Virus record (IMG/VR): IMGVR_UViG_2671180460_000002
Direction: 5' to 3' (one strand)
Length of the DNA stretch: 36,986 nucleotides
Origin: a virus
Lineage: Duplodnaviria > Heunggongvirae > Uroviricota > Caudoviricetes
Both the position numbers and the translations under genes were made by a program. This document shows positions 1 through 36,986 of this stretch, one piece after another. The stretch's first letter is position 1, and each line of letters begins with the position of its first letter. A model generated the notes under the pieces. It saw only the letters and a list, made by a program, of their open reading frames with translations, did no database searches and was not told the DNA's origin.

Positions 1-1
1 C

Positions 2-184
2 CGCCAGCTTGAGTACAAGCAGCTCTGGCGTGGCGGTCAGGTGCTTGCTGTTCCGCCAGCGTACACAAGCCAGCGTTGCGCGTGCTGTGGTCATACAGCG
101 AAAGAATGTGGGGTAGTGATCAATTCTGGACTGAGTGAGAACAGCCTGGACGAGCCTATAAGCCTTGAGTGGCGCAGGATGTGA
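2..184 (+). pseudogene. IS200/IS605-family TnpB-like C-terminal fragment, apparently interrupted by the prophage left end
   Basis: Frame beginning at 2 reads ...PPAYTSQRCACCGHTAKE..., matching the YTSQ-C-CG zinc-finger region of TnpB/OrfB. After AKE (about nt 106) the expected second Cys pair is absent and the frame stops after 25 unrelated codons. ORF is open at the window edge. Confidence 0.5.
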
Positions 185-258
185 GAGATTTTACCGATTC
201 TGGATCGTTTTGAAGAAAATGATCAAAAGTACATTTTTTTGCGCTCAAATCTGGACTG
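125..258. repeat. three copies of TCTGGAYYG (125-133, 199-207, 250-258); candidate transposase end-binding sites (L1-L3 analogues)
   Basis: Direct repeats TTCTGGACTG, TTCTGGATCGTTTT and ATCTGGACTGTTTT spaced 74 and 51 bp apart, upstream of the leftward repressor gene, where Mu carries its L1-L3 MuA sites. Confidence 0.3.
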
Positions 259-1478: not shown

Positions 1479-3520
1479 TGTTTTATTCAGCCAATGAACT
1501 GGCCGGTCTTACTGGTTTGCCCGGTACAGTTCAGGGGGTGCGCTGGACGCTCAATCGGATCACAGAGACGCACCCGGAATGGAAGCGCAAGCGTGAAGGC
1601 ACCAAAGCATTCGAGTATCACATCGACTGCCTGCCCGCTGAAGCGCAGAAGGTTTTACGTAAGCGCCTGACTCATCAGGTCCTGGAAGATGCACAACTGC
1701 CCGCCGTGGTTGAGCAGAAGGCAGTTAAAAACGTCGCCGTTCGTGATGAACTGGAAGTGATGGTCAAATGCCCGGAACTGGCATTACGCGAAGTTCAGGC
1801 ACTGACCGACAAGCAAAAGGCCATCGCTGATGCGCGGATATTGCTGGCTACCGAAGTGCATAAACTGCGTGAATACGCAAGAATGTCCAGGACGGCAGCG
1901 ATAAAACACATTGTTGATGGTATCCGCCAGGAGGCTTTGCCCGAGCGCGTTATTGTGGCAGGTAATACCGCCAATGCCCGACAGGGTAAGCGAACTGGCG
2001 TCAGTACAGGGAGTTTACAGGAATGGTATTCCGCCTGGCTGATGGCGCGCGGTGATGCCAATCAGTTACTGGCGTTACTGGCTCCCGGTCATCATAAGGG
2101 AACACCGTGGGAGCAGGTTTGGTGGTTGAGCGATTTCTTTATGTTCTATCGCTCATGGAAGCGCCCGACCGTTGAATATGCGTATCGCGAGTTTTCAGCC
2201 TGGTGGCATGAAAAACACGCGAACGATGCGGGAATGCTGGCGGCACTGCCTTCAGTTCACGCAGTAAGACGGGTGTTAAGCAGCGTCCCGGTGATTGTTA
2301 AAGAGCGTTTCCGCTCCACCGGTTCAGCCTGGCGTTCGCTCAATCCCTTTGTGCGACGCGACTGGAGCACATTACCGGTTAATGCGGTATGGGTCGGGGA
2401 TGGTCACTGTATGAAAATGACCGCGTTTAACCCCCTGACCGGCAATATTTTCCGGCCAGAAGTGACGCTGGTTATGGATGCGGGGCAGCGCTTTGTTGTG
2501 GGCTGGTCGCTGTCCCTGTCGGAGAACGTGATAGCCGTTGCTGATGCGTTACGTTACGGCATGGCGCAGCACGGGATACCGCTGATTTATTACTCCGATA
2601 ACGGGGGCGGCGAAAAAAACCGGGTACTTGATGCCGATATTACCGGGATTCTGCCCCGTCTGGGTGTGGAACATCACACGGGGATACCAGGTAACCCACA
2701 GGGGCGCGGGGTGATTGAAAGGCTTAACAAGGAAATTCCCCGGGATGTGGCCCTGAGTTTCCGGACGTACTGCTCAAAGGGAGCAGACAAGGAAACCGTA
2801 ATGATGCAGCAACGGATTATGCAGTCAGCCATTAAGGCCACCCACAAAGGGAAAGAGCTGACAAAACGGCAGGTTAAGTCAAGGGATGAAATCCCCACCT
2901 TTGAGCAACTGATGGCAGCTATAGAGCTGGAGGTCAGACGCTATAACAACCGGCCACACAGCAGCCTTCCCCGCAAAGAGGATGGCGAATATTACAGTCC
3001 GGCAGCGTATCGCCGGAAACTGATAAAAGAACAGAATGTTGAAATTGATTTTCTGTCGCCGGAAGAGCTGCATGAAATGTTCAGACCGGAGGTGACGCGC
3101 AAAACATTTCGCGGGGAAATTCAGTTATTCAACAATATTTATTACTCGTATGAGCTGGCAGCAGAGCACGGAAATGAAGTCAGGGTTTGTTACGACATTC
3201 ACGACGCAAACAGCGTGATTGTCAGGCGGATGGACGGTTCTTATATCTGCGATGCCATCTGGAACGGTAATAAGGTTGATGCGTTCCCGAAAGCTGTTAT
3301 CGAACAGCAGCAGGAGAAACGCGCCAGAGGCCGCATTGCACGGGCCACGCAGAAAATCGAAGAGGCTAAACGCGAGCTTACCCCGGCTATTACGCAGAAG
3401 CCTGACTTTAATTTTGGATGTGGTCTGGAGCGTAAGGAGGAAAAGAAAAAAGAAGAACTTTATTTCTTTGCATCCGAGCGTGACCGCAATTTAAAGAAAG
3501 ACGGCACAAACAACCGTTAA
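1478..3520 (+). CDS. Mu-type DDE transposase (MuA-like)
   Basis: 680 aa, immediately after ner. N-terminal winged-helix-like region followed by a large catalytic core, size and position as for MuA (663 aa). Confidence 0.9.
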   Translation: MFYSANELAGLTGLPGTVQGVRWTLNRITETHPEWKRKREGTKAFEYHIDCLPAEAQKVLRKRLTHQVLEDAQLPAVVEQKAVKNVAVRDELEVMVKCPELALREVQALTDKQKAIADARILLATEVHKLREYARMSRTAAIKHIVDGIRQEALPERVIVAGNTANARQGKRTGVSTGSLQEWYSAWLMARGDANQLLALLAPGHHKGTPWEQVWWLSDFFMFYRSWKRPTVEYAYREFSAWWHEKHANDAGMLAALPSVHAVRRVLSSVPVIVKERFRSTGSAWRSLNPFVRRDWSTLPVNAVWVGDGHCMKMTAFNPLTGNIFRPEVTLVMDAGQRFVVGWSLSLSENVIAVADALRYGMAQHGIPLIYYSDNGGGEKNRVLDADITGILPRLGVEHHTGIPGNPQGRGVIERLNKEIPRDVALSFRTYCSKGADKETVMMQQRIMQSAIKATHKGKELTKRQVKSRDEIPTFEQLMAAIELEVRRYNNRPHSSLPRKEDGEYYSPAAYRRKLIKEQNVEIDFLSPEELHEMFRPEVTRKTFRGEIQLFNNIYYSYELAAEHGNEVRVCYDIHDANSVIVRRMDGSYICDAIWNGNKVDAFPKAVIEQQQEKRARGRIARATQKIEEAKRELTPAITQKPDFNFGCGLERKEEKKKEELYFFASERDRNLKKDGTNNR

Positions 3521-3537
3521 TTTAAAAGGTATTTAAT

Positions 3538-4431
3538 ATGAGTTTAATTACGCAATTAAATGACGTAATGGCCCGTCGCGGCTATACACAAACCCACGTT
3601 GCCCGTGCTATTGGTCGTAGCAGCGCCGTTATCAACCAGTATTTGCAGGGTAAATATCAGGGCGATATCACTGATATCGAAGAGCGAATTTCTGCCTTTG
3701 TCAGCCGTGAACGGGAAAAAGAAAACAACCGGCGTGTAAAAGCAAGTTTTGTGACTACAGGTATGGCCGCCAAAGGGTTGGAGGCACTGGCCTATGCTCA
3801 TCTGGAGTGTGAAATTAGCGTGTTGTATGGCGCGGCAGGTCTTGGCAAAACAATGATTTTGCGCGAATACGCCGCCAGAAACCGGGACGCAATACTGATT
3901 GAGGCTGACCCGGGCTATACAGCCAGGACACTGCTGGAGGAGTTGTGCCGCCAGTTGGGGGTAAAGGTTCGCGGCAATATTCACGAACTGATTAATGCCT
4001 GTGTACACGAATTGCGTGACTCCGGTCGCCTGCTGATGGTGGATGAAGCCGAACTGCTCCCCTATCGTGCGCTGGAAGTTCTGCGTCGTCTGCATGACAA
4101 GGCGGGCGTCGGTGTTGCCCTGGCTGGTATGCCGCGCCTGTTGATTAATCTTAAAGGCAATCGTGGGGAGTTCGCGCAGCTATACAGTCGGGTGGCTCTT
4201 TCGCTGGACCTCGGCGATACGCTGGCGCAGAAGGATTTCATCCAGATAGCCGCTGAACTGATGCCGGAAGCAGCAGCGCCTGAAATCTGTGAAGCACTTT
4301 ACACACGCTCACGGGGTAATGCCCGACGCCTGTTTAAACTTGTGCGTGGGGTCTACCGGATTTGTGATATCAGCGATGCCCCGGTCAGCGTGCAGGCTAT
4401 TGATGATTTCGCGGAAATGTTAATTCACTGA
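3538..4431 (+). CDS. MuB-like AAA+ ATPase, transposition target DNA activator
   Basis: 297 aa with Walker A GAAGLGKT and N-terminal HTH-like segment; directly downstream of the transposase as in Mu. Confidence 0.85.
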   Translation: MSLITQLNDVMARRGYTQTHVARAIGRSSAVINQYLQGKYQGDITDIEERISAFVSREREKENNRRVKASFVTTGMAAKGLEALAYAHLECEISVLYGAAGLGKTMILREYAARNRDAILIEADPGYTARTLLEELCRQLGVKVRGNIHELINACVHELRDSGRLLMVDEAELLPYRALEVLRRLHDKAGVGVALAGMPRLLINLKGNRGEFAQLYSRVALSLDLGDTLAQKDFIQIAAELMPEAAAPEICEALYTRSRGNARRLFKLVRGVYRICDISDAPVSVQAIDDFAEMLIH

Positions 4432-11013: not shown

Positions 11014-11292
11014 ATGAAGATTGAACAAATCGGAATGGCAGCCTTCCGGCAACAGGCTGAAAGCGGTGGTGTGGATGAGTTCGTCGTGCAGCGGTTCGGT
11101 GGTGTGTATCACCTCTTCGCTGTGAATCGCCGCGCCGGGGTGTCCTATTTTCTACAGGAACGCCGTGGCGATTACAAGACGTGGCTGTCTCTTGACCGTG
11201 CCGCCGCGTTCCTGTCGGGGATTGGTGTTTCTCGTTTTACCGTGCGTTTTGAGGATAACAAACATGCTGAAAAAGATGATCGGAGCCATTAA
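11014..11292 (+). CDS. hypothetical protein
   Basis: ATG at 11014 after the twin palindromes; the track start at 10978 lies inside the palindrome. 3' end overlaps the GemA-like gene in another frame. Confidence 0.35.
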   Translation: MKIEQIGMAAFRQQAESGGVDEFVVQRFGGVYHLFAVNRRAGVSYFLQERRGDYKTWLSLDRAAAFLSGIGVSRFTVRFEDNKHAEKDDRSH

Positions 11293-11677
11293 AGCCGGTC
11301 AGGCGTATCTGGGGTGGGATGATGCCCTTTATCGCCAGACACTGGCTCGCCTGACCGGTAAAACCAGCACCACACGCTGCAATCTCGATGAACTGCGCAT
11401 CATCCGGGAATACATGCACGAACAGGGATTTCCGCGCAAAGCGCCCGCCGGTAAAGGTCGCCGCCCCCGTGTTGCAATGAGCAGAAAATCGGTATTATCC
11501 AAAATTGAGGCGTTGCTGGCTGATGCCGGTCGTTCCTGGGCGTATACGGAAGGACTGGCATCTCACATGTATAAGCAACATGTGATCGAATGGCTGACAG
11601 ATGATCAACTGTTCGGGGTGATGGTGGCGCTGACAAAAGACGCCAGAAAACGAGCCAGAGCAGCACGTAAACAATAA
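11264..11677 (+). CDS. GemA-like protein (DUF1018-type)
   Basis: N-terminus ...AIKAGQAYLGWDDALYRQTLARLTGKTSTTRCNLDELRIIREYMHEQGF matches the GemA/gp16 pattern; position just upstream of the Mor/C gene as in Mu. Confidence 0.55.
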   Translation: MLKKMIGAIKAGQAYLGWDDALYRQTLARLTGKTSTTRCNLDELRIIREYMHEQGFPRKAPAGKGRRPRVAMSRKSVLSKIEALLADAGRSWAYTEGLASHMYKQHVIEWLTDDQLFGVMVALTKDARKRARAARKQ

Positions 11678-11682
11678 AGAAT

Positions 11683-11710
11683 CAGCCCCTGCCTTGCAGG
11701 GGCTTTTTTG
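11683..11710 (+). terminator. intrinsic terminator ending the early operon
   Basis: AGCCCCTGC-ctt-GCAGGGGCT stem-loop followed by TTTTTTG, 6 nt after the GemA-like stop. Confidence 0.7.
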
Positions 11711-11713
11711 TGG

Positions 11714-11743
11714 TCTGTACAGGCGATCATGTATGGCTATAAT
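11714..11743 (+). promoter_or_regulatory. putative sigma70-type promoter for the Mor/C-family gene
   Basis: Consensus -10 TATAAT at 11738-11743, 30 nt upstream of the start codon; -35 is weak (TGTACA). Confidence 0.4.
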
Positions 11744-11772
11744 AACAGTAAGTTACTACCGGAGACGCCATC

Positions 11773-12240
11773 ATGCAGACCTTCAGTGAAACAGATCTTC
11801 GCGATGCGCAGGCACTACTGCCCGATTCCGTGCAGCAACTGATTAGCGTGATTGGCTTTCCCGCTCTGACCCGGTTAATTCGTTCTTTTGGTGGTGTGAC
11901 GTTAAGCGGTAAAACCGGCGCACACACCGAACGCACCGGCGGTGTCCATGCCCTGTTACATGACGTGCTGACCGAAGACGAAATCAACAAACTGATCCGC
12001 TTTCTTGGCGGTGCGCCGTTTTATATTCCCCGTTGCGATCATGCGTTACGTGCCCTGCGTAACTCCCGTTTTATGGCTGATTTACAGCAACATATAAAAG
12101 GCGGATGCTCACACCGGCAGGCGCTGGCACTGCTTTGTCCACGTTACGGAATTTCAGACCGGTACGCATGGCAACTGATACACCGACGACAAAAACAGAT
12201 TTCGCTGAAGAGCCCCACCCAGGTGGGGCTTTTTGATTAA
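11773..12240 (+). CDS. Mor/C-family transcriptional activator (late gene activator)
   Basis: Contains the Mor-family ...GGAPFYIPR... segment followed by a C-terminal HTH-like region; located after the early terminator and before the lysis and structural genes. Confidence 0.8.
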   Translation: MQTFSETDLRDAQALLPDSVQQLISVIGFPALTRLIRSFGGVTLSGKTGAHTERTGGVHALLHDVLTEDEINKLIRFLGGAPFYIPRCDHALRALRNSRFMADLQQHIKGGCSHRQALALLCPRYGISDRYAWQLIHRRQKQISLKSPTQVGLFD

Positions 12241-12265
12241 TGGGCCTCAGAAAAAGGAGACACTT

Positions 12266-12544
12266 ATGACCAACTATACGGCCCTTGCCGAGTATACGGC
12301 CTACTCAGAGCAGGCCCGGGATGCTGCCGGACGCCGCTTCGCTTATATGAAAAATCTGTCCAGCCAGCTAAACCGAATGGCCGAACAACCGGATATGATT
12401 GTTCATGAAGAAGCGTTGCAGTGTGCCATTGCTGATATTATCGCCAGTGAAAACGAGATGCGAGCCGCTCTGGAAAAAGCAAACGCCTCTGCTCCGCTTT
12501 GCAATAAACCTCTTATTACGCCGGATTCCCTTTCCCGCTTCTGA
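12266..12544 (+). CDS. hypothetical protein
   Basis: ATG at 12266 preceded by AAGGAG; 92 aa. Confidence 0.4.
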   Translation: MTNYTALAEYTAYSEQARDAAGRRFAYMKNLSSQLNRMAEQPDMIVHEEALQCAIADIIASENEMRAALEKANASAPLCNKPLITPDSLSRF

Positions 12545-12563: not shown

Positions 12564-12580
12564 GGGGTGCTGAACTCCCC
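12564..12580 (+). promoter_or_regulatory. late-promoter dyad motif copy 1 (GGGGTGCTGAACTCCCC)
   Basis: One of three copies of GTGCTGAAC-N-CCC; overlaps a second dyad CACCCC-N8-GGGGTG. Lies upstream of the lysis cassette. Confidence 0.5.
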
Positions 12581-12663
12581 CAGCAGTACCTGCCACTCCA
12601 TACCGCCTATCCTGTCCACTCAGTCTGTAAAACACGCAGGGATAACACTCACAGGAGAATTTC

Positions 12664-17324: not shown

Positions 17325-18920
17325 ATGGCACAGCTTGTTGATATTTACGGACGCCCGCTGAAACGTGAGGCACTCAAAACCACGCAGACGGTCAGAGTGG
17401 CGGAACGGCTGCGCATTTATCCAGACCACCCGTCGCGTGGTCTGAACATCAGAAAACTGCCGCGCATTCTGGAAGCCGCCGAGCGTGGTTATCTTCCTGC
17501 GCAGGCGATGCTGTTTGCGGATATGGAAGAGCGTGACGGGCACCTGTTCGCCGAGATGGAAAAGCGCAAAAAAGCGTTGCTGACGCTGGACTGGTCGGTG
17601 GAGCCGCCCCGCAATGCCTCGAAGGCAGAAAAGGAGCTGGCCGCCGCCGTGGATGAGTGGCTGCACGGCATCCCGGACATGGAGGACATCATCCTCAACG
17701 GGATGAGCAGTGTCGGTTACGGCTTCAGCTGTCAGGAAATCAGCTGGGCGTTCGTGGATAAAACGTGGTTACCGGATGCGGTGACGCTGCGCCCGCATAA
17801 CTGGTTCATAACCCTGCCGGAACACAATGACGAACTCCGGCTGGATGACGGCGGTCGCGGGGAAGATGGTAAGGACGGTTCCGCACTGTGGCCGTTCGGC
17901 TGGCTGGTTCACCGTTACAACGCCCGGTCGGGGCTCCTGGGTTCATCCGGCCTGTTCCGCGTACTGGTCTGGCCGTATCTGTTCAAAAACTTTGCGCTGC
18001 GTGATATGGCGGAATTCCTGGAGATTTACGGCCTTCCGGCGCGTATTGCGTACTATGCACAGGGCACCAGTGACGAAGACCGGGACAACATTCTCGAAGC
18101 CCTGGTCAATCTGGGCCATGAAGCGGTGGCAGCCCTGCCGCAGGGTAACGAGATTGAGTTCAAGGAGGCCGCGTCCGGCGGACCGGAGGCGTTCATGTCG
18201 ATGGTGGAATGGGCAGAGCGCACCACCTCAAAAGCAATTCTGGGCAGTACGCTGACCAGCCAGGCTGACGGTAAAACCTCCACCAACGCGCTGGGTAATG
18301 TGCATAACGAGGTCCGGCACGACATTCTGGCCGCCGATGCGCGCCAGCTGTCCGGCATGTTCAGCAGCCTGATACAGATGATGGCCAGCCTGAACGGCTG
18401 GCAGGATATCCCGCCACGCCGTCTGCCGCGTCTGGTGTTTGATGTGCAGCAGGAAGCCGACATTAAGGGCGTGGCGGAAGCCGTCAGTGTGCTGGTCAAC
18501 AGTGTGGGGATGAAGGATATCCCGGCGTCGTGGGTGCGCAAAAAAACCGGTATCCCCACCCCGAAAGACGGCGAAGAGGTGCTGGTGCCGGTGGCACAGC
18601 GTCTCCCTGTGCAGGCGGGCCACAGCCAGCTGCGTGAGCGGATGAATGTTGCCGCACTCAGTCAGCAGGACAACGGGGAGGACGACCTGGCACAGAACGC
18701 CATCGACCGGGCAGAGCTTCCGGCAGAGGCCATCGCGCAGGGGATGAACGAACTGGTGGCCCCACTGGTGCAGGCCATACAGGAAGGCCGGGATGCAGAC
18801 GAGGCCATGAACATACTGGCGGAAGCCTGGCCGGAACTGCCGGATGAAACACTGCGGCAGTTGCTGACACAGGCATTCTTTGTGGCGGATATCTGGGGGC
18901 GACTGAATGCCGACAGCTGA
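17325..18920 (+). CDS. portal protein (Mu gp29/H-like, DUF935-type)
   Basis: 531 aa immediately after the large terminase; AGGAGG RBS; Mu-like synteny. Confidence 0.8.
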   Translation: MAQLVDIYGRPLKREALKTTQTVRVAERLRIYPDHPSRGLNIRKLPRILEAAERGYLPAQAMLFADMEERDGHLFAEMEKRKKALLTLDWSVEPPRNASKAEKELAAAVDEWLHGIPDMEDIILNGMSSVGYGFSCQEISWAFVDKTWLPDAVTLRPHNWFITLPEHNDELRLDDGGRGEDGKDGSALWPFGWLVHRYNARSGLLGSSGLFRVLVWPYLFKNFALRDMAEFLEIYGLPARIAYYAQGTSDEDRDNILEALVNLGHEAVAALPQGNEIEFKEAASGGPEAFMSMVEWAERTTSKAILGSTLTSQADGKTSTNALGNVHNEVRHDILAADARQLSGMFSSLIQMMASLNGWQDIPPRRLPRLVFDVQQEADIKGVAEAVSVLVNSVGMKDIPASWVRKKTGIPTPKDGEEVLVPVAQRLPVQAGHSQLRERMNVAALSQQDNGEDDLAQNAIDRAELPAEAIAQGMNELVAPLVQAIQEGRDADEAMNILAEAWPELPDETLRQLLTQAFFVADIWGRLNADS

Positions 18921-20073
18921 CGATGTTGACCTGGGGTATGCGTACACCCTGAAGCCGGAAGAAGCGATTAAGTATTTCGAAAGCAAGGGATACGTTATCG
19001 GCTTCCGCTGGCACGATGTGAAGGATATTGCAAACGCCCGGGCGTTCACGGTGGCGGGTGTGCTGAAACTGGATGTGCTGAAGGATATCCGTGATGGCCT
19101 GACGGCGGCACTGGCTGACGGCGGGACGTTCCGGGAGTTTGCTGCACAACTGGAGCCACTGCTGGAATCAAAAGGCTGGCTGGGTAAAAAGCTGATTGTG
19201 GACGAGGACACCGGCGAACTGCACGGCAGACAGCTGACGCCGCGCCGGTTGCGCACGATATTTGATACCAATATTCAGTCGTCCTACAACGCCGGGCGTT
19301 ATCAGCAGCAGATGGCGAACGTGGCCGACCGGCCTTATTTTGAGCGCGTGGCGGTGATGGACCTTCACACCCGCCCGAAACACGCCGCCCTGAACGGTTT
19401 TACCGCCCGGGCGGATGACCCGGTCTGGGAGTATTTCTACGCGCCGGACGGATACGGATGCCGCTGCCGTGTCCGGGCGCGTTCGGCATCGGATGTGGAG
19501 AAATATGGCCTGACGGTGCAGAGCAGCGAGGGACGACTGGTTGAGGTTGAGCAGGAATATGGCCAGCCGGGCCAGACCATCAGAACAATGGGACTGAAGA
19601 TGCCGGACGGCTCCGTGTATACCGCCGACCCGGGCTTCGGATTTAATCCCGGTCGGGTGGCATGGCAGCCGGAACTGGAAAAATATGATTACCGCAGTGC
19701 CCGCCAGTATGTCACCGGCACTCTGACCGGACCGGATTTTGCCCGGGGACTGGCGAACGTCAGCGAACTGGATGCGCGCCAGCGATATCCGCTGGCCATC
19801 CGTTCACCGGAACAGGTCGCCGCCACGGGCGCTGCGCGGCAGACGGTAAACCTTACGGCTGACGTTATGAAGCGCCTCAGTGCAACAGACACGCCCCCGA
19901 CCGCCGCCGACTATGCGCTGATGCAGCAGACCATCGAACGGGCGGAGCATGTCACGCAGGACGGTAACGCGTGGCGGTATGCGTTACAGTCGGGCGACCG
20001 CTGGTCAGTGGCGACGGTGGAGGATGACGTGCTGACAGACTGGGTTATGCAGGACACCCCGGAGGCATCATGA
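18907..20073 (+). CDS. head morphogenesis protein (Mu F-like)
   Basis: 388 aa overlapping the portal 3' end, as for Mu gp30/F. Confidence 0.8.
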   Translation: MPTADDVDLGYAYTLKPEEAIKYFESKGYVIGFRWHDVKDIANARAFTVAGVLKLDVLKDIRDGLTAALADGGTFREFAAQLEPLLESKGWLGKKLIVDEDTGELHGRQLTPRRLRTIFDTNIQSSYNAGRYQQQMANVADRPYFERVAVMDLHTRPKHAALNGFTARADDPVWEYFYAPDGYGCRCRVRARSASDVEKYGLTVQSSEGRLVEVEQEYGQPGQTIRTMGLKMPDGSVYTADPGFGFNPGRVAWQPELEKYDYRSARQYVTGTLTGPDFARGLANVSELDARQRYPLAIRSPEQVAATGAARQTVNLTADVMKRLSATDTPPTAADYALMQQTIERAEHVTQDGNAWRYALQSGDRWSVATVEDDVLTDWVMQDTPEAS

Positions 20074-20621
20074 GCGGCGGTAAACTGGATATTAAGATTG
20101 ATTTAAGCGCGTATAACACCACGCTGGGGAAACTGATTCGTTCCGTGAAGGACCGGCGCGACCTGATGACGGCACTTGCAGGCTCCATGCTGGATGCGGT
20201 TGAGACTAACTTTGAACAACAGGGTCGCCCGAAATGGATGGGCTGGAGTCCGGCTTATGCGAAGCGACGCGGCCCCGGGCAAATCCTCCAGAAGTCCGGG
20301 CGACTGGCTGCCAGTATCCGCTCTGCGGTTAACAATAACGAGGCCACGGTCGGGACAAACGTCCGTTACGCCCGTATCCACAACGAAGGCGGCGAAATCC
20401 GCCATCAGGCACGGACGCAGAACCTGTATTTTAAACAGTACAAAAACGGCAGCGTCAGCACCCGCTTTGTGAAAAAGCGCAACAGTAATTTTGTGCAGAG
20501 CGCAACGGTCGGTGCGTATACGGTCAACATGCCCGCGCGTCCCTTCCTTCAGCTTGTGCAGGACGACATCGACGAGCTGGAGAACACCGCAAACCGCTAT
20601 TTTGCGCGTGTGATTGACTGA
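20070..20621 (+). CDS. virion morphogenesis protein (Mu G-like)
   Basis: 183 aa, GGAGG RBS, start overlaps the F stop; resembles Mu G family. Confidence 0.75.
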   Translation: MSGGKLDIKIDLSAYNTTLGKLIRSVKDRRDLMTALAGSMLDAVETNFEQQGRPKWMGWSPAYAKRRGPGQILQKSGRLAASIRSAVNNNEATVGTNVRYARIHNEGGEIRHQARTQNLYFKQYKNGSVSTRFVKKRNSNFVQSATVGAYTVNMPARPFLQLVQDDIDELENTANRYFARVID

Positions 20622-20774
20622 GTGGCCAGAAGCGCGCTGTAATCATCTGTGACAACATAAACGCCTCACGGATGAGGCATTACAGCACCGCACCCCATAA
20701 ATGCTGTCAGAATCGTTTTTAAAATGGTTTTAAAAACGGTTTTATTTCCCCTTTTATCCTTTCGCGTTATGGCA

Positions 20775-20789
20775 GGGTGCTGAACACCC
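20775..20789 (+). promoter_or_regulatory. late-promoter dyad motif copy 2 (GGGTGCTGAACACCC)
   Basis: Perfect GGGTG-N5-CACCC dyad in the 200-bp gap before the protease/scaffold gene; an AT-rich TTTTAAAA repeat block lies upstream at 20715-20745. Confidence 0.5.
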
Positions 20790-20821
20790 TCCACAGTACC
20801 CCGTGTTCCCCTTCCGTCATC

Positions 20822-21964
20822 ATGACGCGTATGAAGATGAACATTGCGGCGTTAAGCCTCGAAATTACTAAAGCAACCCACAGCGAAATCCAGCTGTTTC
20901 CGGCAGGTGAGTTCAGTGCAGTGGATGGTCGCCCACATACCGATGAAGTCGAAAGCGGTAAATGGGTGCTGACTGCCGGACTGGCCGCGCAGCTTGTCGC
21001 GCAGGTGGCAGCCCGTACCACGCCATTTGTCATTGATTACGAACATCAGACGCTGCGCGCCGTAAACAACGGCAAGCCTGCCCCGGCGGCGGGCTGGTTC
21101 AGCCAGGTGGAATGGCGTGAAGGCGCGGGCCTGTATGCCATCGGTGTGGAGTGGACGGAGAACGCGGCGGCCATGATTGCCGCCGGTGAGTACAAATTTA
21201 TTTCCCCGGTATTTGGATACAACAAGCGCGGTGAAGTCATCGAACTGTTACACGCCGCACTGACCAATACCCCGGCGCTCGACGGTATGGACGCGGTCAT
21301 GCTGGCTGCGGCCAGCCGTCTTGCGAGTCTGTCAACTGAAACGGAGACCACAACGGTGGATGAAGAACTGTTAAACGATTTGCTGTCCAGTTTGCGCTGG
21401 ATGCTTAACCTCCCGGTGACCTCAACGGCGGAAGATATTAAAAGCGAGCTGCAAAAGGTCGTTGACATGATTTCGAACGGTCAGGGAACGGCGGCGGCAT
21501 CCGTCAGCCTGCTGGCCCTGCTGAATCAGAAAGACGAGCAAATCGCCAGCCTGTCAGCAAATGCCTATGACCCGACGAAGCATATCCCTCTGACGGCATA
21601 TGAAGAACTTCAGGGACGTTATGCCGTACTGGTGCAACAGTCCGGCGAAGCCGAAGCCGGGGCACTGATTCAGGCGGCGCTGTCTGACGGGCGACTGCTT
21701 CCGACGCTGGAAGACTGGGCGAAAGATTACGCTCGTCGCGATATCAACGGTTTTAAAACCTGGCTGGATAAAACCACCCCGCTTGCCGCACTCAGCAGCA
21801 CCCAGACCGGCGGCAAACCACCCAAAACGCCGTCACCGGCCCCGGCGCAGATTAAAACTGGCGATGACGTCGATGTCGATATCGCCATTTGTTCCATGAT
21901 GGGCACTGATCCAGAAGATATCGCCCGTTATGCAGGAAACGACTATTACGCAGGAGATGAGTAA
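20822..21964 (+). CDS. head protease/scaffold protein (Mu I-like)
   Basis: Position and size as Mu gp32/I. Start uncertain (ATG at 20822, 20831 or 20837; none has a strong RBS); the track start at 20777 lies inside the promoter motif. Confidence 0.7.
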   Translation: MTRMKMNIAALSLEITKATHSEIQLFPAGEFSAVDGRPHTDEVESGKWVLTAGLAAQLVAQVAARTTPFVIDYEHQTLRAVNNGKPAPAAGWFSQVEWREGAGLYAIGVEWTENAAAMIAAGEYKFISPVFGYNKRGEVIELLHAALTNTPALDGMDAVMLAAASRLASLSTETETTTVDEELLNDLLSSLRWMLNLPVTSTAEDIKSELQKVVDMISNGQGTAAASVSLLALLNQKDEQIASLSANAYDPTKHIPLTAYEELQGRYAVLVQQSGEAEAGALIQAALSDGRLLPTLEDWAKDYARRDINGFKTWLDKTTPLAALSSTQTGGKPPKTPSPAPAQIKTGDDVDVDIAICSMMGTDPEDIARYAGNDYYAGDE

Positions 21965-29534: not shown

Positions 29535-30883
29535 TGGGCTGGGCTGAAAACCTGCAAAACGCTTCCTTTCGTGGCGTGCAGTTTGATGTACTGAACACGG
29601 ATGAACAAATCAGCCGCGACCATACGGTCTATGAATACCCGTTTGTTGACGGGGCGGATTTGCACGACCTCGGACGCAAGGCGCGACCGTTCCGCATGAC
29701 GGCGTTCCTGTGGGGGGAGTTTTACGAATATAAACTTGAAAAGCTGATCGCCGCCCTGGATAAAGGCGGCGATGGTGAGCTGATTCACCCGGTTTACGGC
29801 TCCGTACCGTCGGTGATTGTGACCGGCTACAGCATTCGCCATGACGCAGAAAGCCCGGACAGCTGCACCATCGACATGAGTTTTCTGGAGAACCGCACCG
29901 GCAGCGCGTTGTTCAGCACCCCGTTACCGGAGCTGTTTGCACAGCAGTTATTTGAAGAACTGGATAAGTTACTGGAACAGTTAAGCGAATTATTTGACGC
30001 TGTTACGGCCCCTTTAAAGACCATTAACAGCGTGATTAAAAAAATCCAGACGGTGCGTGCCACGCTGGTGAATACCCTGCTGACGTTCAAAAGCGATTTT
30101 CTCTCATCCATCGACAATATGATGTCACTGGCCAGCGAACCCGGAAAGTTCATCGGCGGGCTGGCAGAGGTGCTGGAAATCCACACGTCAGATGTCGGGC
30201 ACGCGGTGCCGGTGCTGGAGCGTACTGATTCCGCCACCACGACCGGACTGACCGGAGAAGACAGCGTCGCCAGTTCTGCGACCGTGATGACCTGCTGGAA
30301 TGAGGTGATGGCAGATATGGATGAGCTGGTCGCGCTGCCGGTCGCACTGGTCAGCGGTGATAAAACGCCGTCTGTGGCACTTCCGCCGGATGCGTCCGTG
30401 GAAGACGTGCAGGACGTGAAAGCGGCTTATGCGGTTCTGGCAGCCTCAGAGCTGGCCAGCGTGGCGACGGCGATACTGTCAGATGAGGCCCAGTCAGAGC
30501 AGCTTATACCGGCGGATATCGGGCGACTGGTCGGGGATGTGCGCACCCGCTTACAGGCCGCCATTACGCTGTTCCGTGAACGCTATGAAGGCGAACGCGA
30601 ACGGATAACCGAAACCGCATCACCACTGGGGCTGATGTACCCGGAAATCATTCAGAGCATGAAGAACGTGGCGGCATCCGTGCAGGATGTCGGCCTGCTG
30701 GTTCTGTCACGCCGCCCACCGCTGACGCAGAAACAGGTGCAGGCGGACAGCTGTCTGCTGTTGCTGGCGTGGCAGTGGTACGGCGACTACAGCCGTGCGG
30801 CAGAGCTGCAACGTCTGAACCCGCAGCTGCGTGACCCGAACAACATAACCGCCGGGATGGTGATTAATGCCTATGCAAAATAA
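29534..30883 (+). CDS. Mu gp43/N-like protein (DNA circularisation protein family)
   Basis: N-terminus MGWAENLQNASFRGVQFDV matches the DNA_circ_N-type start; GGAGG RBS; follows tape measure. Confidence 0.75.
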   Translation: MGWAENLQNASFRGVQFDVLNTDEQISRDHTVYEYPFVDGADLHDLGRKARPFRMTAFLWGEFYEYKLEKLIAALDKGGDGELIHPVYGSVPSVIVTGYSIRHDAESPDSCTIDMSFLENRTGSALFSTPLPELFAQQLFEELDKLLEQLSELFDAVTAPLKTINSVIKKIQTVRATLVNTLLTFKSDFLSSIDNMMSLASEPGKFIGGLAEVLEIHTSDVGHAVPVLERTDSATTTGLTGEDSVASSATVMTCWNEVMADMDELVALPVALVSGDKTPSVALPPDASVEDVQDVKAAYAVLAASELASVATAILSDEAQSEQLIPADIGRLVGDVRTRLQAAITLFRERYEGERERITETASPLGLMYPEIIQSMKNVAASVQDVGLLVLSRRPPLTQKQVQADSCLLLLAWQWYGDYSRAAELQRLNPQLRDPNNITAGMVINAYAK

Positions 30884-32728: not shown

Positions 32729-32741
32729 GTGCTGAACACCC
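32729..32741 (+). promoter_or_regulatory. late-promoter dyad motif copy 3 (GTGCTGAACACCC)
   Basis: Third copy of the motif, beginning 1 nt after the gp45-like stop and 53 nt before the gp46-like ATG. Confidence 0.45.
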
Positions 32742-32781
32742 TCACCTGATTCTGACCTGTCCATGCTGCCAGACTGGCGGC

Positions 32782-33132
32782 ATGGACCAGACGATTTCAC
32801 CTGCAACCGGCGACTACGAACGCCGCCGGATTTATACACTTCATAACGCGGTTTATCTGCGACTGGCGACACCGCTTGGCAGTTACTGGGCGGATGCGTC
32901 GCTGGGGTCACGCCTGCACGAACTGAAGCGGGAAAAAGACGTTTCCCGTGTTCACCGGCTGGCGGCGCAGTATGCCAGCCAGGCACTTCAGCCCCTGCTT
33001 GATGACGGGCGGGCGACAGCAATTACCGTTGACACGAAAGCGGGCCAGCGCGGCTGGCTGTTGCTGTTAATCACCGTCACGGATAACGCGGGCACACCGC
33101 AGACGTTTGAACACCCTGTGAGGATTATGTAA
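32782..33132 (+). CDS. baseplate protein (Mu gp46-like)
   Basis: 116 aa directly upstream of the baseplate-J-like gene, as Mu gp46. Confidence 0.65.
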   Translation: MDQTISPATGDYERRRIYTLHNAVYLRLATPLGSYWADASLGSRLHELKREKDVSRVHRLAAQYASQALQPLLDDGRATAITVDTKAGQRGWLLLLITVTDNAGTPQTFEHPVRIM

Positions 33133-36177: not shown

Positions 36178-36986
36178 ATGTCTGTATTAATTTCAGGTGC
36201 ACTTGTTAATGGCACTGGCGTTCCGATGGCGGAATGCAAAATTTATTTAGATGCACTGGTTAATACCAGTGAAGTGGTTATTGAATCATTTGCGGTTATT
36301 GAAACCGATGCGGCGGGACAGTATGCCTTTGAAGCGCAGACAGGAAAATATGCCGTTCATATAAAACAAAAGAACGGCCCGAAATGTTGCGTGGGGAATA
36401 TTGCTGTTTATGACGATTCAAAGCCCGGCACGCTGAACGACTTTCTGACCGCCCCCGATGAAGGCGACCTCAAACCCGACGTGGTAAAACGCTTTGAGGA
36501 AATGGTGGCACAGGCGCAGCAGAGCGCAGAAGCCGCCGCTGGCAGCAAACAACAGGCAGGACAACACGCCACTGATGCACAGCAGATTAAGGCCGACTGT
36601 CAGGCGCTGGCGAAAGACGTACAGCAGAAAGCCGACGCGGTTGCGGAGGGTAAACAACAGGCCGAAAATCTGGTCTCACAGGTTGAGAATGCCGCCGAGG
36701 AGGTAAAAAAGGACGCTGAAGCTGCTAAACAGGCCGCATCTGATGCAGAGCATGTCAGGGAGGATATTGACACCGCGTTATCTGCGACACTGAAAACGGC
36801 GAATCGTTTATCAGAGCTGGCTGATGAAGGTGAAGAGGCTCAGCAGGAATCCCGTGATAATCTTGGACTGAAAAGCGCAGCCACGATGACGCCACAGAGC
36901 GACATTCGCGACCGGACTGAAGGCCGTCTGGCGACACCTGGCGCATTTGGTTTTGGGCATATTTTTCTGCCCGCAGAGCGTATCCG
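36178..36986 (+). CDS. side tail fibre protein, lambda Stf-like N-terminal domain (3' partial, runs off window)
   Basis: MSVLISGALVNGTGVPMAECKIYL...GKYAVHIKQ...IAVYDDSKPGTLNDFL...PDVVKRFEEMV parallels the lambda Stf N-terminus. No stop in window, so absent from the supplied track. Confidence 0.8.
   Translation, partial: MSVLISGALVNGTGVPMAECKIYLDALVNTSEVVIESFAVIETDAAGQYAFEAQTGKYAVHIKQKNGPKCCVGNIAVYDDSKPGTLNDFLTAPDEGDLKPDVVKRFEEMVAQAQQSAEAAAGSKQQAGQHATDAQQIKADCQALAKDVQQKADAVAEGKQQAENLVSQVENAAEEVKKDAEAAKQAASDAEHVREDIDTALSATLKTANRLSELADEGEEAQQESRDNLGLKSAATMTPQSDIRDRTEGRLATPGAFGFGHIFLPAERI

What the first reader, a model, noticed from the sequence alone, without database searches (positions are those of the whole stretch)
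20622..20830. 200-bp control region before the head protease gene: hairpin, TTTTAAAA block, dyad motif, and a near-leaderless start
After the G-like gene there is a hairpin CGCCTCA-cgga-TGAGGCG (about 20661-20678), then an AT-rich block with TTTTAAAA-type repeats (20715-20745, UP-element or IHF-like), then the perfect dyad GGGTGCTGAACACCC. The first in-frame ATG of the protease/scaffold gene is only about 44 nt after the motif and has no obvious Shine-Dalgarno, so the mRNA may be leaderless or nearly so.
Basis: partly seen in the sequence, partly recalled or inferred. Interest (0 to 1): 0.5.

Follow-up and report, generated by a model that had tools for sequence, protein, structure and literature searches.

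The report
Mu-like prophage late promoter, leaderless start
The 209-bp gap between the G and I (head protease) genes of this Mu-like E. coli prophage matches phage Mu's G-I control region, but its activator-dependent late promoter seems to start the transcript on the ATG itself, and about 40 related prophages share this layout.

Summary
All four elements exist at roughly the stated coordinates, but the reading changes. The window is a Mu-like E. coli prophage, and 20622-20830 is its G-I spacer. In Mu, GenBank annotates this spacer with the strong gyrase site, a terminator and late promoter PI.

GCTGAACNCCC occurs exactly three times, each before an operon (holin, I, gp46). A -10-like hexamer starts 39 nt after it in all three copies, as in Mu C-dependent promoters.

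The conserved start codon is ATG 20831, the second in-frame ATG. It lies 7 nt after CATCAT and has no Shine-Dalgarno. Of 47 related loci, 38 have a -10-like hexamer 6-7 nt before the ATG, 3 have any SD, and 22 have a dyad centred 42.5-45.5 nt upstream. A leaderless I mRNA is well supported but inferred.

The AT block is not an UP element or IHF site. It matches the phased TTTAAA repeats of Mu's gyrase-site right arm and can also form a terminator-like hairpin. An approximate gyrase matrix gave only a moderate score.

The hairpin lacks a T-run. It sits where relatives have a true terminator.

The parts
11773..12240 (+). Gene for the only Mor/C-family activator in the window; presumed activator of the three late promoters
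   Evidence: Pfam PF08765 Mor, E=1.4e-6. Homologues are named Mor family activators by their sources. Weak local similarity to Mu C and Mu Mor.
20070..20621 (+). G-like virion morphogenesis gene, the last gene of the upstream operon
   Evidence: Pfam Phage_tail_S, E=2.3e-26.
20632..20643 (+). GCGCGCTGTAAT. It corresponds to the conserved 5' arm and loop of the intrinsic terminator that relatives carry just after G. The 3' arm and T-run are missing in this lineage.
   Evidence: Alignment A3: Intestinirhabdus and Buttiauxella have ACGCGC...GCGCGTTTT(T)AT and Trabulsiella a variant (GCGCCGTTTTGT). The window and E2348/69 have GACAAC/GACAGC...CATAAACGC instead.
20660..20681 (+). No U-run. Function unproven.
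   Evidence: -9.3 kcal/mol. The stem is unchanged in 9 of 11 E. coli variants, with one G-U change and one mismatch. It is absent from more distant relatives.
20636..20686 (+). Alternative long hairpin (GCTGTAAT...ATTACAGC outer stem). Predicted to be stable but not conserved.
   Evidence: -24 kcal/mol, z = -4.7. The arms vary among E. coli variants without compensating changes.
20678..20681 (.). Candidate gyrase cleavage core (4-bp stagger CATT). Low confidence.
   Evidence: It aligns with the Mu core AATC|AGCCGCAC. It lies 37 bp before the GTTTTTAAA block, against 36 bp in Mu and in the Buttiauxella relative. The approximate matrix scores it 4.9, the top 0.78% of the window.
20711..20762 (.). 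Block of AT repeats phased at 11-12 bp, TTTTTAAAA-TGG-TTTTAAAAA-CGG-TTTTATTT-CCCC-TTTTAT. It is the counterpart of Mu's gyrase-site right arm. As RNA it is also a 14-16-bp AU-rich hairpin with a U-rich tail, which is terminator-like.
   Evidence: -12.3 kcal/mol. Invariant in 11 E. coli variants apart from one loop base. TTWAA tandem repeats occur in the G-I spacer of 19 of 48 loci, against 3.1% of background windows. AT/GC periodicity is in the top 0.22% of the window.
20775..20789 (+).
   Evidence: Its symmetry is not kept in relatives.
20779..20794 (+). Presumed activator-dimer site, GCTGA-ACACCC-TCCAC. This is the 16-bp imperfect dyad of the family type GCTGA-N6-TCAGC; 3 of 5 arm pairs match here.
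   Evidence: Relatives have 4-5 of 5 arm pairs at the same position.
20818..20823 (+). -10-like hexamer CATCAT
   Evidence: It starts 39 nt after the G of GCTGA, exactly as TATCCT (12608) and CAGACT (32770) do at the other two copies. Invariant in 11 E. coli variants.
20830..20831 (+). Predicted transcription start (T20830 or A20831). The leader would be 0 or 1 nt.
   Evidence: Inferred from the -10 position and from the dyad centre, which falls at -43.5 or -44.5.
20831..21964 (+). Gene I (head protease/scaffold), starting MKMNIAAL
   Evidence: PGAP uses this start in 10 E. coli genomes. The N-terminus MK..IAAL is conserved in relatives and in Mu. One variant has an in-frame GAA insertion right after this ATG. 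ATG 20837 is CTG in 3 of 11 variants.
12569..12613 (+). Sister late promoter before the holin/lysis operon (dyad GCTGAACTCCCCCAGC, -10 TATCCT). This one has a leader of about 44 nt and the SD GGAG.
32731..32784 (+). Sister late promoter before gp46 (dyad GCTGAACACCCTCACC, -10 CAGACT). The ATG at 32782 lies 7 nt after the hexamer, so this start also looks leaderless.

Best explanation
The spacer is this prophage's version of phage Mu's G-I intergenic region, and it holds three overlapping functions.

(1) A late promoter of the Mu PI type (likelihood about 0.85). A dimer of the prophage's single Mor/C-family activator (gene 11773-12240) binds the imperfect 16-bp dyad GCTGA-N6-TCCAC at 20779-20794. 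This lets sigma-70 RNA polymerase use the weak -10 hexamer CATCAT (20818-23), which has no -35 partner and is followed by a GC-rich discriminator.

(2) Transcription starts at, or 1 nt before, the A of ATG 20831 (about 0.7). The gene I mRNA is therefore leaderless. Ribosomes would load on a 5'-terminal AUG, so efficient translation of I would depend on initiation at this promoter rather than on read-through from the upstream operon.

(3) Upstream, the phased TTTAAA-type AT repeats (20711-20762) are the counterpart of the right arm of Mu's central strong gyrase site (about 0.5). That arm wraps a GyrA C-terminal domain. The putative cleavage core would lie near 20678. In this lineage the same AT palindrome, with its U-rich tail, may also end the upstream holin-to-G operon.

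The GC hairpin at 20660-81 lies where relatives carry a true terminator. No function can be assigned to it.

What the sequence shows: the motifs, their spacings and their conservation. What is inferred: activator binding, the transcription start, leaderless translation and gyrase binding.
For: Context:
- Mu-like gene order with transposase A and B, GemA, Mor/C, holin, portal, F, G, I and T.
- 55 E. coli genomes carry the same prophage at 94-97% identity.
- Mu's GenBank record annotates a gyrase cut site, a terminator, late promoter PI and an RBS in its own G-I spacer.

Promoter:
- GCTGAACNCCC occurs exactly three times, before the holin, I and gp46 operons. The same three copies are in the E2348/69 prophage.
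- All three copies have an NAnnnT hexamer starting 39 nt after the G of GCTGA. This puts the dyad centre at -43.5, the geometry reported for Mu C (PMC2582627).
- No -35/-10 sigma-70 pair is found in the region.
- In 47 related loci, a dyad with at least 4 of 5 arm pairs is centred 42.5-45.5 nt before the ATG in 22 loci; about 3 are expected.
- The half-sites differ between clades (GCTGAA/TTCAGC, ATTAAA/TTTAAT, GCTGAC/GTCAGC, ACTAAC/GTTAGT) while the position stays fixed.

Leaderless start:
- 38 of 47 loci have an NAnnnT hexamer ending 6-7 nt before the I ATG, against 9.8% of all ATG trinucleotides in the same loci.
- Only 3 of 47 have an SD of 4 nt or more.
- The O157:H7 Mu-like prophage has TATGCT-gccgga-ATG.
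- ATG 20831 is invariant and is the PGAP start.
- No upstream ORF could couple translation into I.

Gyrase arm:
- The repeats resemble Mu's ATTTTTTAAAA...ATTTTTAAA...TATTTAA.
- They recur in the G-I spacers of distant relatives: 19 of 48 loci against 3.1% of background windows.
- An AT/GC periodicity test ranks Mu's real right arm second in its genome. It places the window's block in the top 0.22%, and ranks the spacer first in three relatives' loci.
- In Mu, a cryo-EM study found these AT repeats facing GyrA-CTD (PMC11626157).
- The spacer lies at 53-54% of the E2348/69 prophage.
- The core-to-block distance is 36-37 bp in Mu, in Buttiauxella and in the window.
Against: - No transcription start, activator-binding or gyrase-cleavage data exist for this prophage.
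- The promoter-proximal half-site of this copy is weak: only 3 of 5 arm pairs match.
- The ATG lies 1 nt further from the -10 hexamer than in most relatives, so a 1-nt leader is equally possible.
- The related loci share ancestry, so the binomial figures overstate independence.
- Leaderless mRNAs are generally poorly translated in E. coli (my own knowledge). That fits awkwardly with a head-assembly gene.
- Gyrase reading: an approximate cleavage matrix ranks the true Mu site 8th of 36,600 positions, yet gives the spacer's best homologous candidate only 4.9 (top 0.78%).
- The highest score in the window is at 19396, inside gene F.
- The two Salmonella relatives show no strong AT/GC periodicity.
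- A review states that, of the sites tested, only the O157:H7 Sakai prophage's site could replace Mu's (PMC10052514).
Confidence: 0.65

Rival explanations
1. One reading: the AT block is an UP element or an IHF/bending site that boosts the promoter directly, and the perfect dyad GGGTG-N5-CACCC is the operator.
For: The AT block is invariant among 11 E. coli variants. It lies upstream of a promoter. The dyad is perfect in this copy.
Against: - The block lies at -71 to -115, outside the UP-element zone, which the GC-rich activator site occupies.
- The spacer has no IHF consensus at up to 1 mismatch.
- The other two copies of the promoter have no AT block.
- Mu Plys needs only -60 to +8 (PMC2582627).
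- Mu C does not need the alpha-CTD (PMC12867686).
- The GGGTG/CACCC symmetry is lost in relatives, whereas GCTGA-N6-TCAGC is kept.
Confidence: 0.1
2. The AT palindrome is mainly an intrinsic terminator for the holin-to-G operon (AU-rich hairpin plus U-tract) and has no gyrase role.
For: - The hairpin is -12.3 kcal/mol and is followed by UUUAUUUCCCCUUUUAU.
- This lineage has lost the canonical terminator that relatives carry just after G.
- Mu's predicted terminator also overlaps its AT repeats.
Against: - The palindrome itself is not conserved. Intestinirhabdus, Trabulsiella, Photorhabdus and the Salmonella relatives keep direct TTTAAA repeats without the inverted symmetry.
- Several of those relatives already carry a separate proper terminator upstream.
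- The stem has only 2 G-C pairs.
Confidence: 0.25
3. The TTTAAAC-type repeats bind some other protein, either a phage DNA-binding protein or a nucleoid protein such as Fis or H-NS, rather than gyrase.
For: The repeats are sequence-specific (TTAAAC-GG units about one helical turn apart). They are conserved across distant hosts. The approximate gyrase matrix is unimpressed by the window's site.
Against: In Mu, the only function I found documented for the homologous repeats is gyrase wrapping. No candidate binding protein was identified here.
Confidence: 0.2
4. There is no promoter here. I is transcribed by read-through from the holin promoter and translated without an SD by some other route. The motif and the -10-like hexamer are coincidences.
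For: This lineage has no canonical terminator after G, so read-through is plausible.
Against: - The motif has three exact copies, each before an operon.
- The motif-to-hexamer spacing is identical in all three.
- Dyad, hexamer and ATG keep the same fixed positions across 47 loci.
- The sequence just before the ATG is GC-rich and has no SD.
Confidence: 0.05

Closest known systems
Phage Mu late promoter PI (C-dependent; sister promoters Plys, PP, Pmom)
   Same: - It sits between G and I.
- The phage encodes a Mor/C-family activator.
- It has a recognisable -10 but no -35.
- A 16-bp imperfect dyad is centred at -43.5.
- Several copies head the late operons.
   Different: - The half-sites are CTGA...TCAG, not Mu C's TTAT-N5-6-ATAA (PMC12867686).
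- Mu's I gene has an annotated RBS at 18044-46, 10 nt before its ATG. Here the ATG sits at the predicted +1 and has no SD.
- This prophage has one Mor/C gene; Mu has two.
- The third copy precedes gp46. Mu's PP lies inside gene N.
Phage Mu central strong gyrase site (SGS)
   Same: - Same G-I spacer, near the middle of the genome (53-54% here, 48.7% in Mu).
- AT repeats (TTTAAA type) alternate with GC-rich segments about every 11-12 bp downstream of a putative core.
- The core-to-block distance is 36-37 bp.
   Different: - No cleavage data exist here.
- The approximate matrix scores the site 4.9 (top 0.78%), against 7.9 (top 0.02%) for Mu.
- The repeat spacing is a regular 12 bp here, against 22 bp then 12-13 bp in Mu.
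Leaderless mRNAs of E. coli and its phages, for example lambda cI from PRM (from my own knowledge)
   Same: The AUG is at, or within 1 nt of, the predicted 5' end. There is no Shine-Dalgarno. A -10 hexamer lies 6-7 nt upstream.
   Different: This case opens an activator-dependent late structural operon rather than a regulator gene. The arrangement is conserved in about 40 related prophages. The 5' end has not been mapped.
Intrinsic terminators after gene G in related Mu-like prophages, and Mu's predicted terminator at 17908-17953
   Same: Same position at the end of the upstream operon. The 5' arm and loop, ACGCGCTGTAAT, are retained.
   Different: The window's lineage lacks the 3' arm and the T-run. 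The GC hairpin that sits there has no U-tract.

Membership tests
Mor/C-dependent late promoter (Mu type) | The phage encodes a Mor/C-family activator | tested here: met
   Pfam PF08765, E=1.4e-6, for 11773-12240. Homologues are annotated as Mor family.
Mor/C-dependent late promoter (Mu type) | A recognisable -10 hexamer without a usable -35 | tested here: met
   CATCAT at 20818-23. No sigma-70 -35/-10 pair in 20400-21000.
Mor/C-dependent late promoter (Mu type) | A 16-bp imperfect dyad centred at -43.5 | tested here: met
   The GCTGA-N6 dyad begins 39 nt before the hexamer in all three copies. This puts its centre at -43.5 if the hexamer spans -12 to -7. In relatives the dyads peak 43.5 nt before the ATG. 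The transcription start itself is inferred.
Mor/C-dependent late promoter (Mu type) | Several copies at the heads of the late operons | tested here: met
   Three exact copies of GCTGAACNCCC, before the holin, I and gp46 genes.
Mor/C-dependent late promoter (Mu type) | Mu C half-site consensus TTAT-N5-6-ATAA | tested here: not met
   The half-sites are CTGA/TCAG. This is therefore not a site for Mu C itself, but for a divergent family member.
Mor/C-dependent late promoter (Mu type) | Transcription depends on the activator | not testable with these tools
   Needs a reporter assay or in vitro transcription.
Mu-type strong gyrase site | Location in the G-I spacer near the centre of the prophage | tested here: met
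   The spacer lies at 53-54% of the 35.7-kb E2348/69 prophage. Mu's site is at 48.7%.
Mu-type strong gyrase site | A right arm with phased AT/GC repeats | tested here: inconclusive
   The periodicity test puts the block in the top 0.22% of the window. The same test ranks Mu's right arm second in the Mu genome. The repeats resemble Mu's and are enriched in relatives' spacers. However, the right-arm part of the approximate matrix is only in the top 13%.
Mu-type strong gyrase site | A high score with the published gyrase cleavage matrix | tested here: inconclusive
   The published matrix was not available because the supplement sheet is cut. A matrix rebuilt from 416 sites correlates at r=0.74 with published scores on held-out sites. 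It gives 4.9 at 20678 (top 0.78%), against 7.9 (top 0.02%) for Mu's site.
Mu-type strong gyrase site | Strong gyrase cleavage, and a requirement for efficient replicative transposition | not testable with these tools
   Needs cleavage mapping and a deletion or replacement assay.
Leaderless mRNA | AUG start codon with no Shine-Dalgarno | tested here: met
   ATG 20831 is invariant. No SD of 4 nt or more is present here, nor in 44 of 47 relatives.
Leaderless mRNA | The transcript's 5' end coincides with the A of AUG | not testable with these tools
   Inferred only. The -10 hexamer ends 7 nt before the A here and 6-7 nt before it in 38 of 47 relatives.
   The stem is present, but it is followed by TTACAGCACC. 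The scan finds no + strand terminator.
   The block lies at -71 to -115. There is no IHF match at up to 1 mismatch between 19197 and 21742.

The most novel reading that the evidence does not exclude
In a large clade of Mu-like transposable prophages, the head protease/scaffold operon is transcribed as a leaderless mRNA. The clade includes the E. coli prophages of E2348/69 and O157:H7 and many gamma- and betaproteobacterial relatives. In this phage the gp46 baseplate operon would be leaderless as well. The Mor/C-type activator dyad is fixed 43.5 nt before the AUG. Translation of gene I would then be tied to firing of the late promoter, and read-through transcripts would stay largely untranslated for I. 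A stronger form of the idea is that the adjacent gyrase-wrapping repeats couple local supercoiling to opening of this promoter, which has a GC-rich discriminator.
Probability: 0.5. Interest if true: 0.6.

Novelty: new variant of a known kind. Interest (0 to 1): 0.45.

Why it matters
The G-I spacer of Mu is a textbook composite of gyrase site, terminator and C-dependent promoter PI. This prophage keeps that architecture with a different activator specificity, so it offers a natural comparison for how Mor/C activators read their sites.

Putting the AUG at the predicted +1, without an SD, is the notable departure. Leaderless mRNAs are rare in E. coli and usually weakly translated (my own knowledge). 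A conserved leaderless start on a late structural operon, in about 40 prophages from many hosts, would be a ready test case. It could show how leaderless translation is used for regulation, for example to set protease/scaffold dosage or to separate promoter-initiated from read-through transcripts.

It also matters for annotation. Gene finders that expect an SD may choose the wrong start for these genes.

Neither of two full-text searches turned up a paper that links leaderless mRNAs to Mu-like phages.

Tried and rejected
- DNA search of the region against 50,697 phage records: no match. The closest phage protein match is 43% identical.
- Gyrase scoring by counting matches to the published 133-bp consensus: it failed validation on Mu, so I discarded it.
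- Ridge regression of a symmetric matrix on 416 published site scores: cross-validated r = 0.82-0.84, but it did not rank Mu's site at the top and gave the wrong genome mean. Discarded.
- Frequency matrix from the same 416 sites: partly validated and used only as weak evidence.
- IHF consensus: nothing in the spacer.
- Rfam at E up to 1: only a chance snoRNA hit at E = 0.93.
- The long hairpin 20636-20686: stable, but its arms vary without compensation.
- A larger dyad, GGTGCTG-N11-CAGTACC, which I noticed in the I and holin copies: it is absent from the gp46 copy and from relatives, so I dropped it.
- Small ORFs in the spacer: only mechanical ones on the minus strand. No upstream ORF could couple translation into I.
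- The mechanical GTG start at 20777 and ATG 20822: rejected. GTG lies inside the activator site. ATG 20822 lies inside the -10 hexamer and is out of frame in Trabulsiella.
- Oram & Pato 2004 and Oram et al. 2006, on gyrase sites of Mu-like prophages: not held in the library.
Full report
WHAT THE WINDOW IS

The ORF map and Pfam hits show a Mu-like prophage. It carries transposase A and B, GemA, one Mor/C-family gene (11773-12240), a holin, the portal, F, G (20070-20621), the I protease (up to 21964), the T major head protein, tail genes and gp46. The same prophage, at 94-97% identity, is in 55 complete E. coli genomes, including E2348/69 and UMNF18. No sequenced phage matches at the DNA level. 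In E2348/69 it is inserted in eutC and is about 35.7 kb long. The window starts outside the prophage and ends before its right end.

CHECKING THE OBSERVATION

The interval 20622-20830 is exactly the G-I spacer.

- Hairpin. The sequence is CGCCTCA-CGGA-TGAGGCA, a perfect 6-bp stem at 20663-68 / 20673-78, with -9.3 kcal/mol and z = -4.7. No T-run follows, and the scan finds no + strand terminator.
- AT block. It is real and extends to about 20762. Its first two blocks also form a 14-nt inverted repeat.
- Dyad. GGGTGCTGAACACCC is exact at 20775-89.
- Start codons. In-frame ATGs lie at 20822, 20831 and 20837. None has a Shine-Dalgarno.

THE KNOWN COUNTERPART

Mu's GenBank record annotates four features in its own 196-bp G-I spacer:

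- the gyrase cut site of the central strong gyrase site (17879/80);
- a predicted terminator (17908-53);
- late promoter PI (17977-18043);
- an RBS (18044-46) before the I ATG (18056).

Mu's late promoters have a -10 hexamer but no -35. The activator C binds a 16-bp imperfect dyad centred at -43.5 (PMC2582627). Its half-sites follow TTAT-N5-6-ATAA (PMC12867686).

THE MOTIF IS A LATE-PROMOTER ELEMENT

GCTGAACNCCC occurs exactly three times in the window, all on the + strand: at 12569 before the holin gene, at 20779 before I, and at 32731 before gp46. The E2348/69 prophage has the same three copies. In each copy an NAnnnT hexamer starts 39 nt after the G of GCTGA: TATCCT at 12608, CATCAT at 20818 and CAGACT at 32770. 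If the hexamer spans -12 to -7, the 16-bp element beginning at GCTGA is centred at -43.5, which is Mu's geometry.

I collected relatives in two ways. One was through homologues of the activator. The other was through the I protein, which gave 44 loci from Enterobacterales to Betaproteobacteria.

In these relatives the symmetry that is conserved is GCTGA-N6-TCAGC. Intestinirhabdus, Buttiauxella and Trabulsiella match 5 of 5 arm pairs. Other clades carry different palindromes at the same place: ATTAAA..TTTAAT, GCTGAC..GTCAGC and ACTAAC..GTTAGT.

Dyads with at least 4 of 5 arm pairs peak sharply 43.5 nt before the ATG. Counting centres from -42.5 to -45.5, 22 of 47 loci have one, where about 3 are expected. 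The half-sites change while the position stays fixed. That is what a co-evolving activator and binding site should look like.

The window's own copy is weaker, with 3 of 5 arm pairs. The activator is only distantly related to Mu C and Mor.

THE START CODON AND THE LEADERLESS INFERENCE

ATG 20831 is the start, for five reasons:

- It is invariant in 11 E. coli variants.
- One variant has an in-frame GAA insertion directly after it.
- ATG 20837 is CTG in 3 of 11 variants.
- ATG 20822 lies inside the -10 hexamer and is out of frame in Trabulsiella.
- NCBI's PGAP annotation starts the gene at the 20831 equivalent in all 10 genomes inspected.

Protein conservation (MK..IAAL) begins at this ATG in relatives and in Mu.

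The A of this ATG lies 7 nt after CATCAT. For gp46 the distance is 6 nt (CAGACT-ggcggc-ATG). Across 47 loci:

- 38 have an NAnnnT hexamer ending 6-7 nt before the I ATG, typically followed by GGCGGC-ATG. Among all ATG trinucleotides in the same loci the figure is 9.8%.
- Only 3 have an SD of 4 nt or more.

The O157:H7 Mu-like prophage shows TATGCT-gccgga-ATG. No upstream ORF could provide translational coupling.

The -10 position and the dyad position both place +1 on the A of the ATG. In this window it could instead be 1 nt before it, because the dyad centre is -44.5 from the A and -43.5 from T20830. I therefore consider a leaderless or 1-nt-leader I mRNA likely, at about 0.7.

This remains an inference, because no 5' end has been mapped. 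The loci are also phylogenetically related, so the binomial numbers overstate independence. Mu itself differs, having an annotated RBS. The holin promoter in this window has a leader of about 44 nt with GGAG.

Neither of my two full-text searches found a paper linking leaderless mRNAs with Mu-like phages.

THE AT BLOCK

As a promoter element it fails several tests:

- It lies at -71 to -115.
- The spacer has no IHF consensus.
- The other two promoter copies lack it.
- Mu Plys needs only -60 to +8.

It does resemble Mu's sequence just right of the gyrase cut site, ATTTTTTAAAAcgcgccacgggATTTTTAAAccggTATTTAAcgg. Similar TTTAAA(C)-GG repeats, about 11-12 bp apart, occur in the G-I spacers of many distant relatives. 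These include Photorhabdus, Xenorhabdus, an Ectothiorhodospiraceae genome, Chitinimonas and the O157:H7 prophage. In total 19 of 48 loci have them, against 3.1% of background windows, and they are often the only such site in a 7-kb locus.

In Mu these AT repeats face the GyrA C-terminal domain in a cryo-EM structure (PMC11626157). The right arm is the essential part of the site (PMC10052514).

A simple AT/GC periodicity test gave these results:

- Mu's right arm ranks second in the whole Mu genome.
- The window's block is in the top 0.22%.
- The spacer ranks first in three relatives' loci.
- The two Salmonella relatives do not stand out.

TESTING FOR A GYRASE CLEAVAGE CORE

The published position matrix was cut from the stored supplement. 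I rebuilt an approximate matrix from 416 published cleavage sites in W3110.

Two versions failed validation on Mu and were discarded: consensus match-counting and a regression on the published scores. A frequency matrix performed better:

- It correlates at r = 0.74 with published scores on held-out sites.
- It ranks Mu's site 8th of 36,600 positions, with a score of 7.9.

In the window it gives 4.9 at 20678, the top 0.78%. By alignment this position corresponds to the Mu core and to a high-scoring site (8.6) in the Buttiauxella spacer. The distance from core to AT block is the same, 36-37 bp, in all three.

The highest score in the window, 10.0, is at 19396 inside gene F. The gyrase reading therefore rests on homology and architecture, not on a strong predicted core. 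I put it at about 0.5.

HAIRPINS AND TERMINATION

Relatives carry a canonical terminator just after G: ACGCGC-loop-GCGCGTTTT in Intestinirhabdus and Buttiauxella, a variant of it (GCGCCGTTTTGT) in Trabulsiella, and other GC stems with T-runs in the Salmonella loci.

The window's lineage keeps the 5' arm and loop (GCGCGCTGTAAT, 20632-43). That hairpin is conserved within E. coli but shows no informative covariation. A more stable long hairpin (20636-86) is not conserved.

The AT palindrome folds at -12.3 kcal/mol and is followed by a U-rich tail. It may serve as the terminator here, much as Mu's predicted terminator overlaps its AT repeats. The palindromic symmetry is not conserved in relatives, so termination cannot explain why the repeats themselves are conserved.

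VERDICT

The region is a new member of a well-known composite, Mu's G-I spacer. It has a divergent activator specificity and one interesting variation: a late promoter that appears to put the AUG at +1, conserved across a wide clade. The promoter assignment is strong. The leaderless start is well supported but unproven. The gyrase role is plausible but unresolved. The hairpin has no demonstrated role.

Noticed in passing
window 32731-32784: The third copy of the late-promoter motif sits between gp45 and gp46, whereas Mu's PP lies inside gene N. The gp46 ATG (32782) is exactly 7 nt after the -10-like CAGACT and has no SD. This is a second apparently leaderless late operon in the same phage.
   Followed up: partly
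window 19396 (gene F); E2348/69 locus L054 21337: My approximate gyrase cleavage matrix gives its highest score in the whole window (10.0) here, inside gene F. In the E2348/69 prophage the same site lies at 50.1% of the prophage length. This may be noise from a rough matrix, or it may be the real central gyrase site.
   Followed up: partly
window 3521-3560; Mu (L009) 3315-3340: TTTAA-type tandem AT repeats also occur at the junction of the transposase A and B genes, in both this prophage and Mu. I know of no function for them.
   Followed up: no
window 11165-12544: Only one Mor/C-family gene is present, right after gemA and just upstream of the first late promoter. Mu has two (mor and C). This suggests a two-step rather than a three-step transcription cascade.
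   Followed up: no
window 20683-20689 versus 20776-20782: CAGCACC, next to the hairpin, is the exact inverted copy of the motif's left part GGTGCTG, 86 nt away (pair I2). This is probably chance.
   Followed up: no
window 29907-29921 (minus strand): A copy of the 15-mer motif with 2 mismatches lies on the opposite strand inside the DNA-circularisation (N-like) gene. No gene start follows it, so it is likely chance.
   Followed up: no
window 1-240 and 36700-36986: The window begins in DNA that does not look like the prophage's left end, and it stops inside a tail-fibre-like gene. Neither prophage end was defined in the window.
   Followed up: partly
L062 1150-1237 (E. coli O157:H7 Mu-like prophage): RefSeq annotates a 'tRNA-OTHER' on the minus strand between the F and G genes of that prophage.
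   Followed up: no
L055 (strain Z1324SEC0014), equivalent of window 20834: A 3-nt in-frame insertion (GAA) directly after the I start codon gives MKKM instead of MKM.
   Followed up: yes
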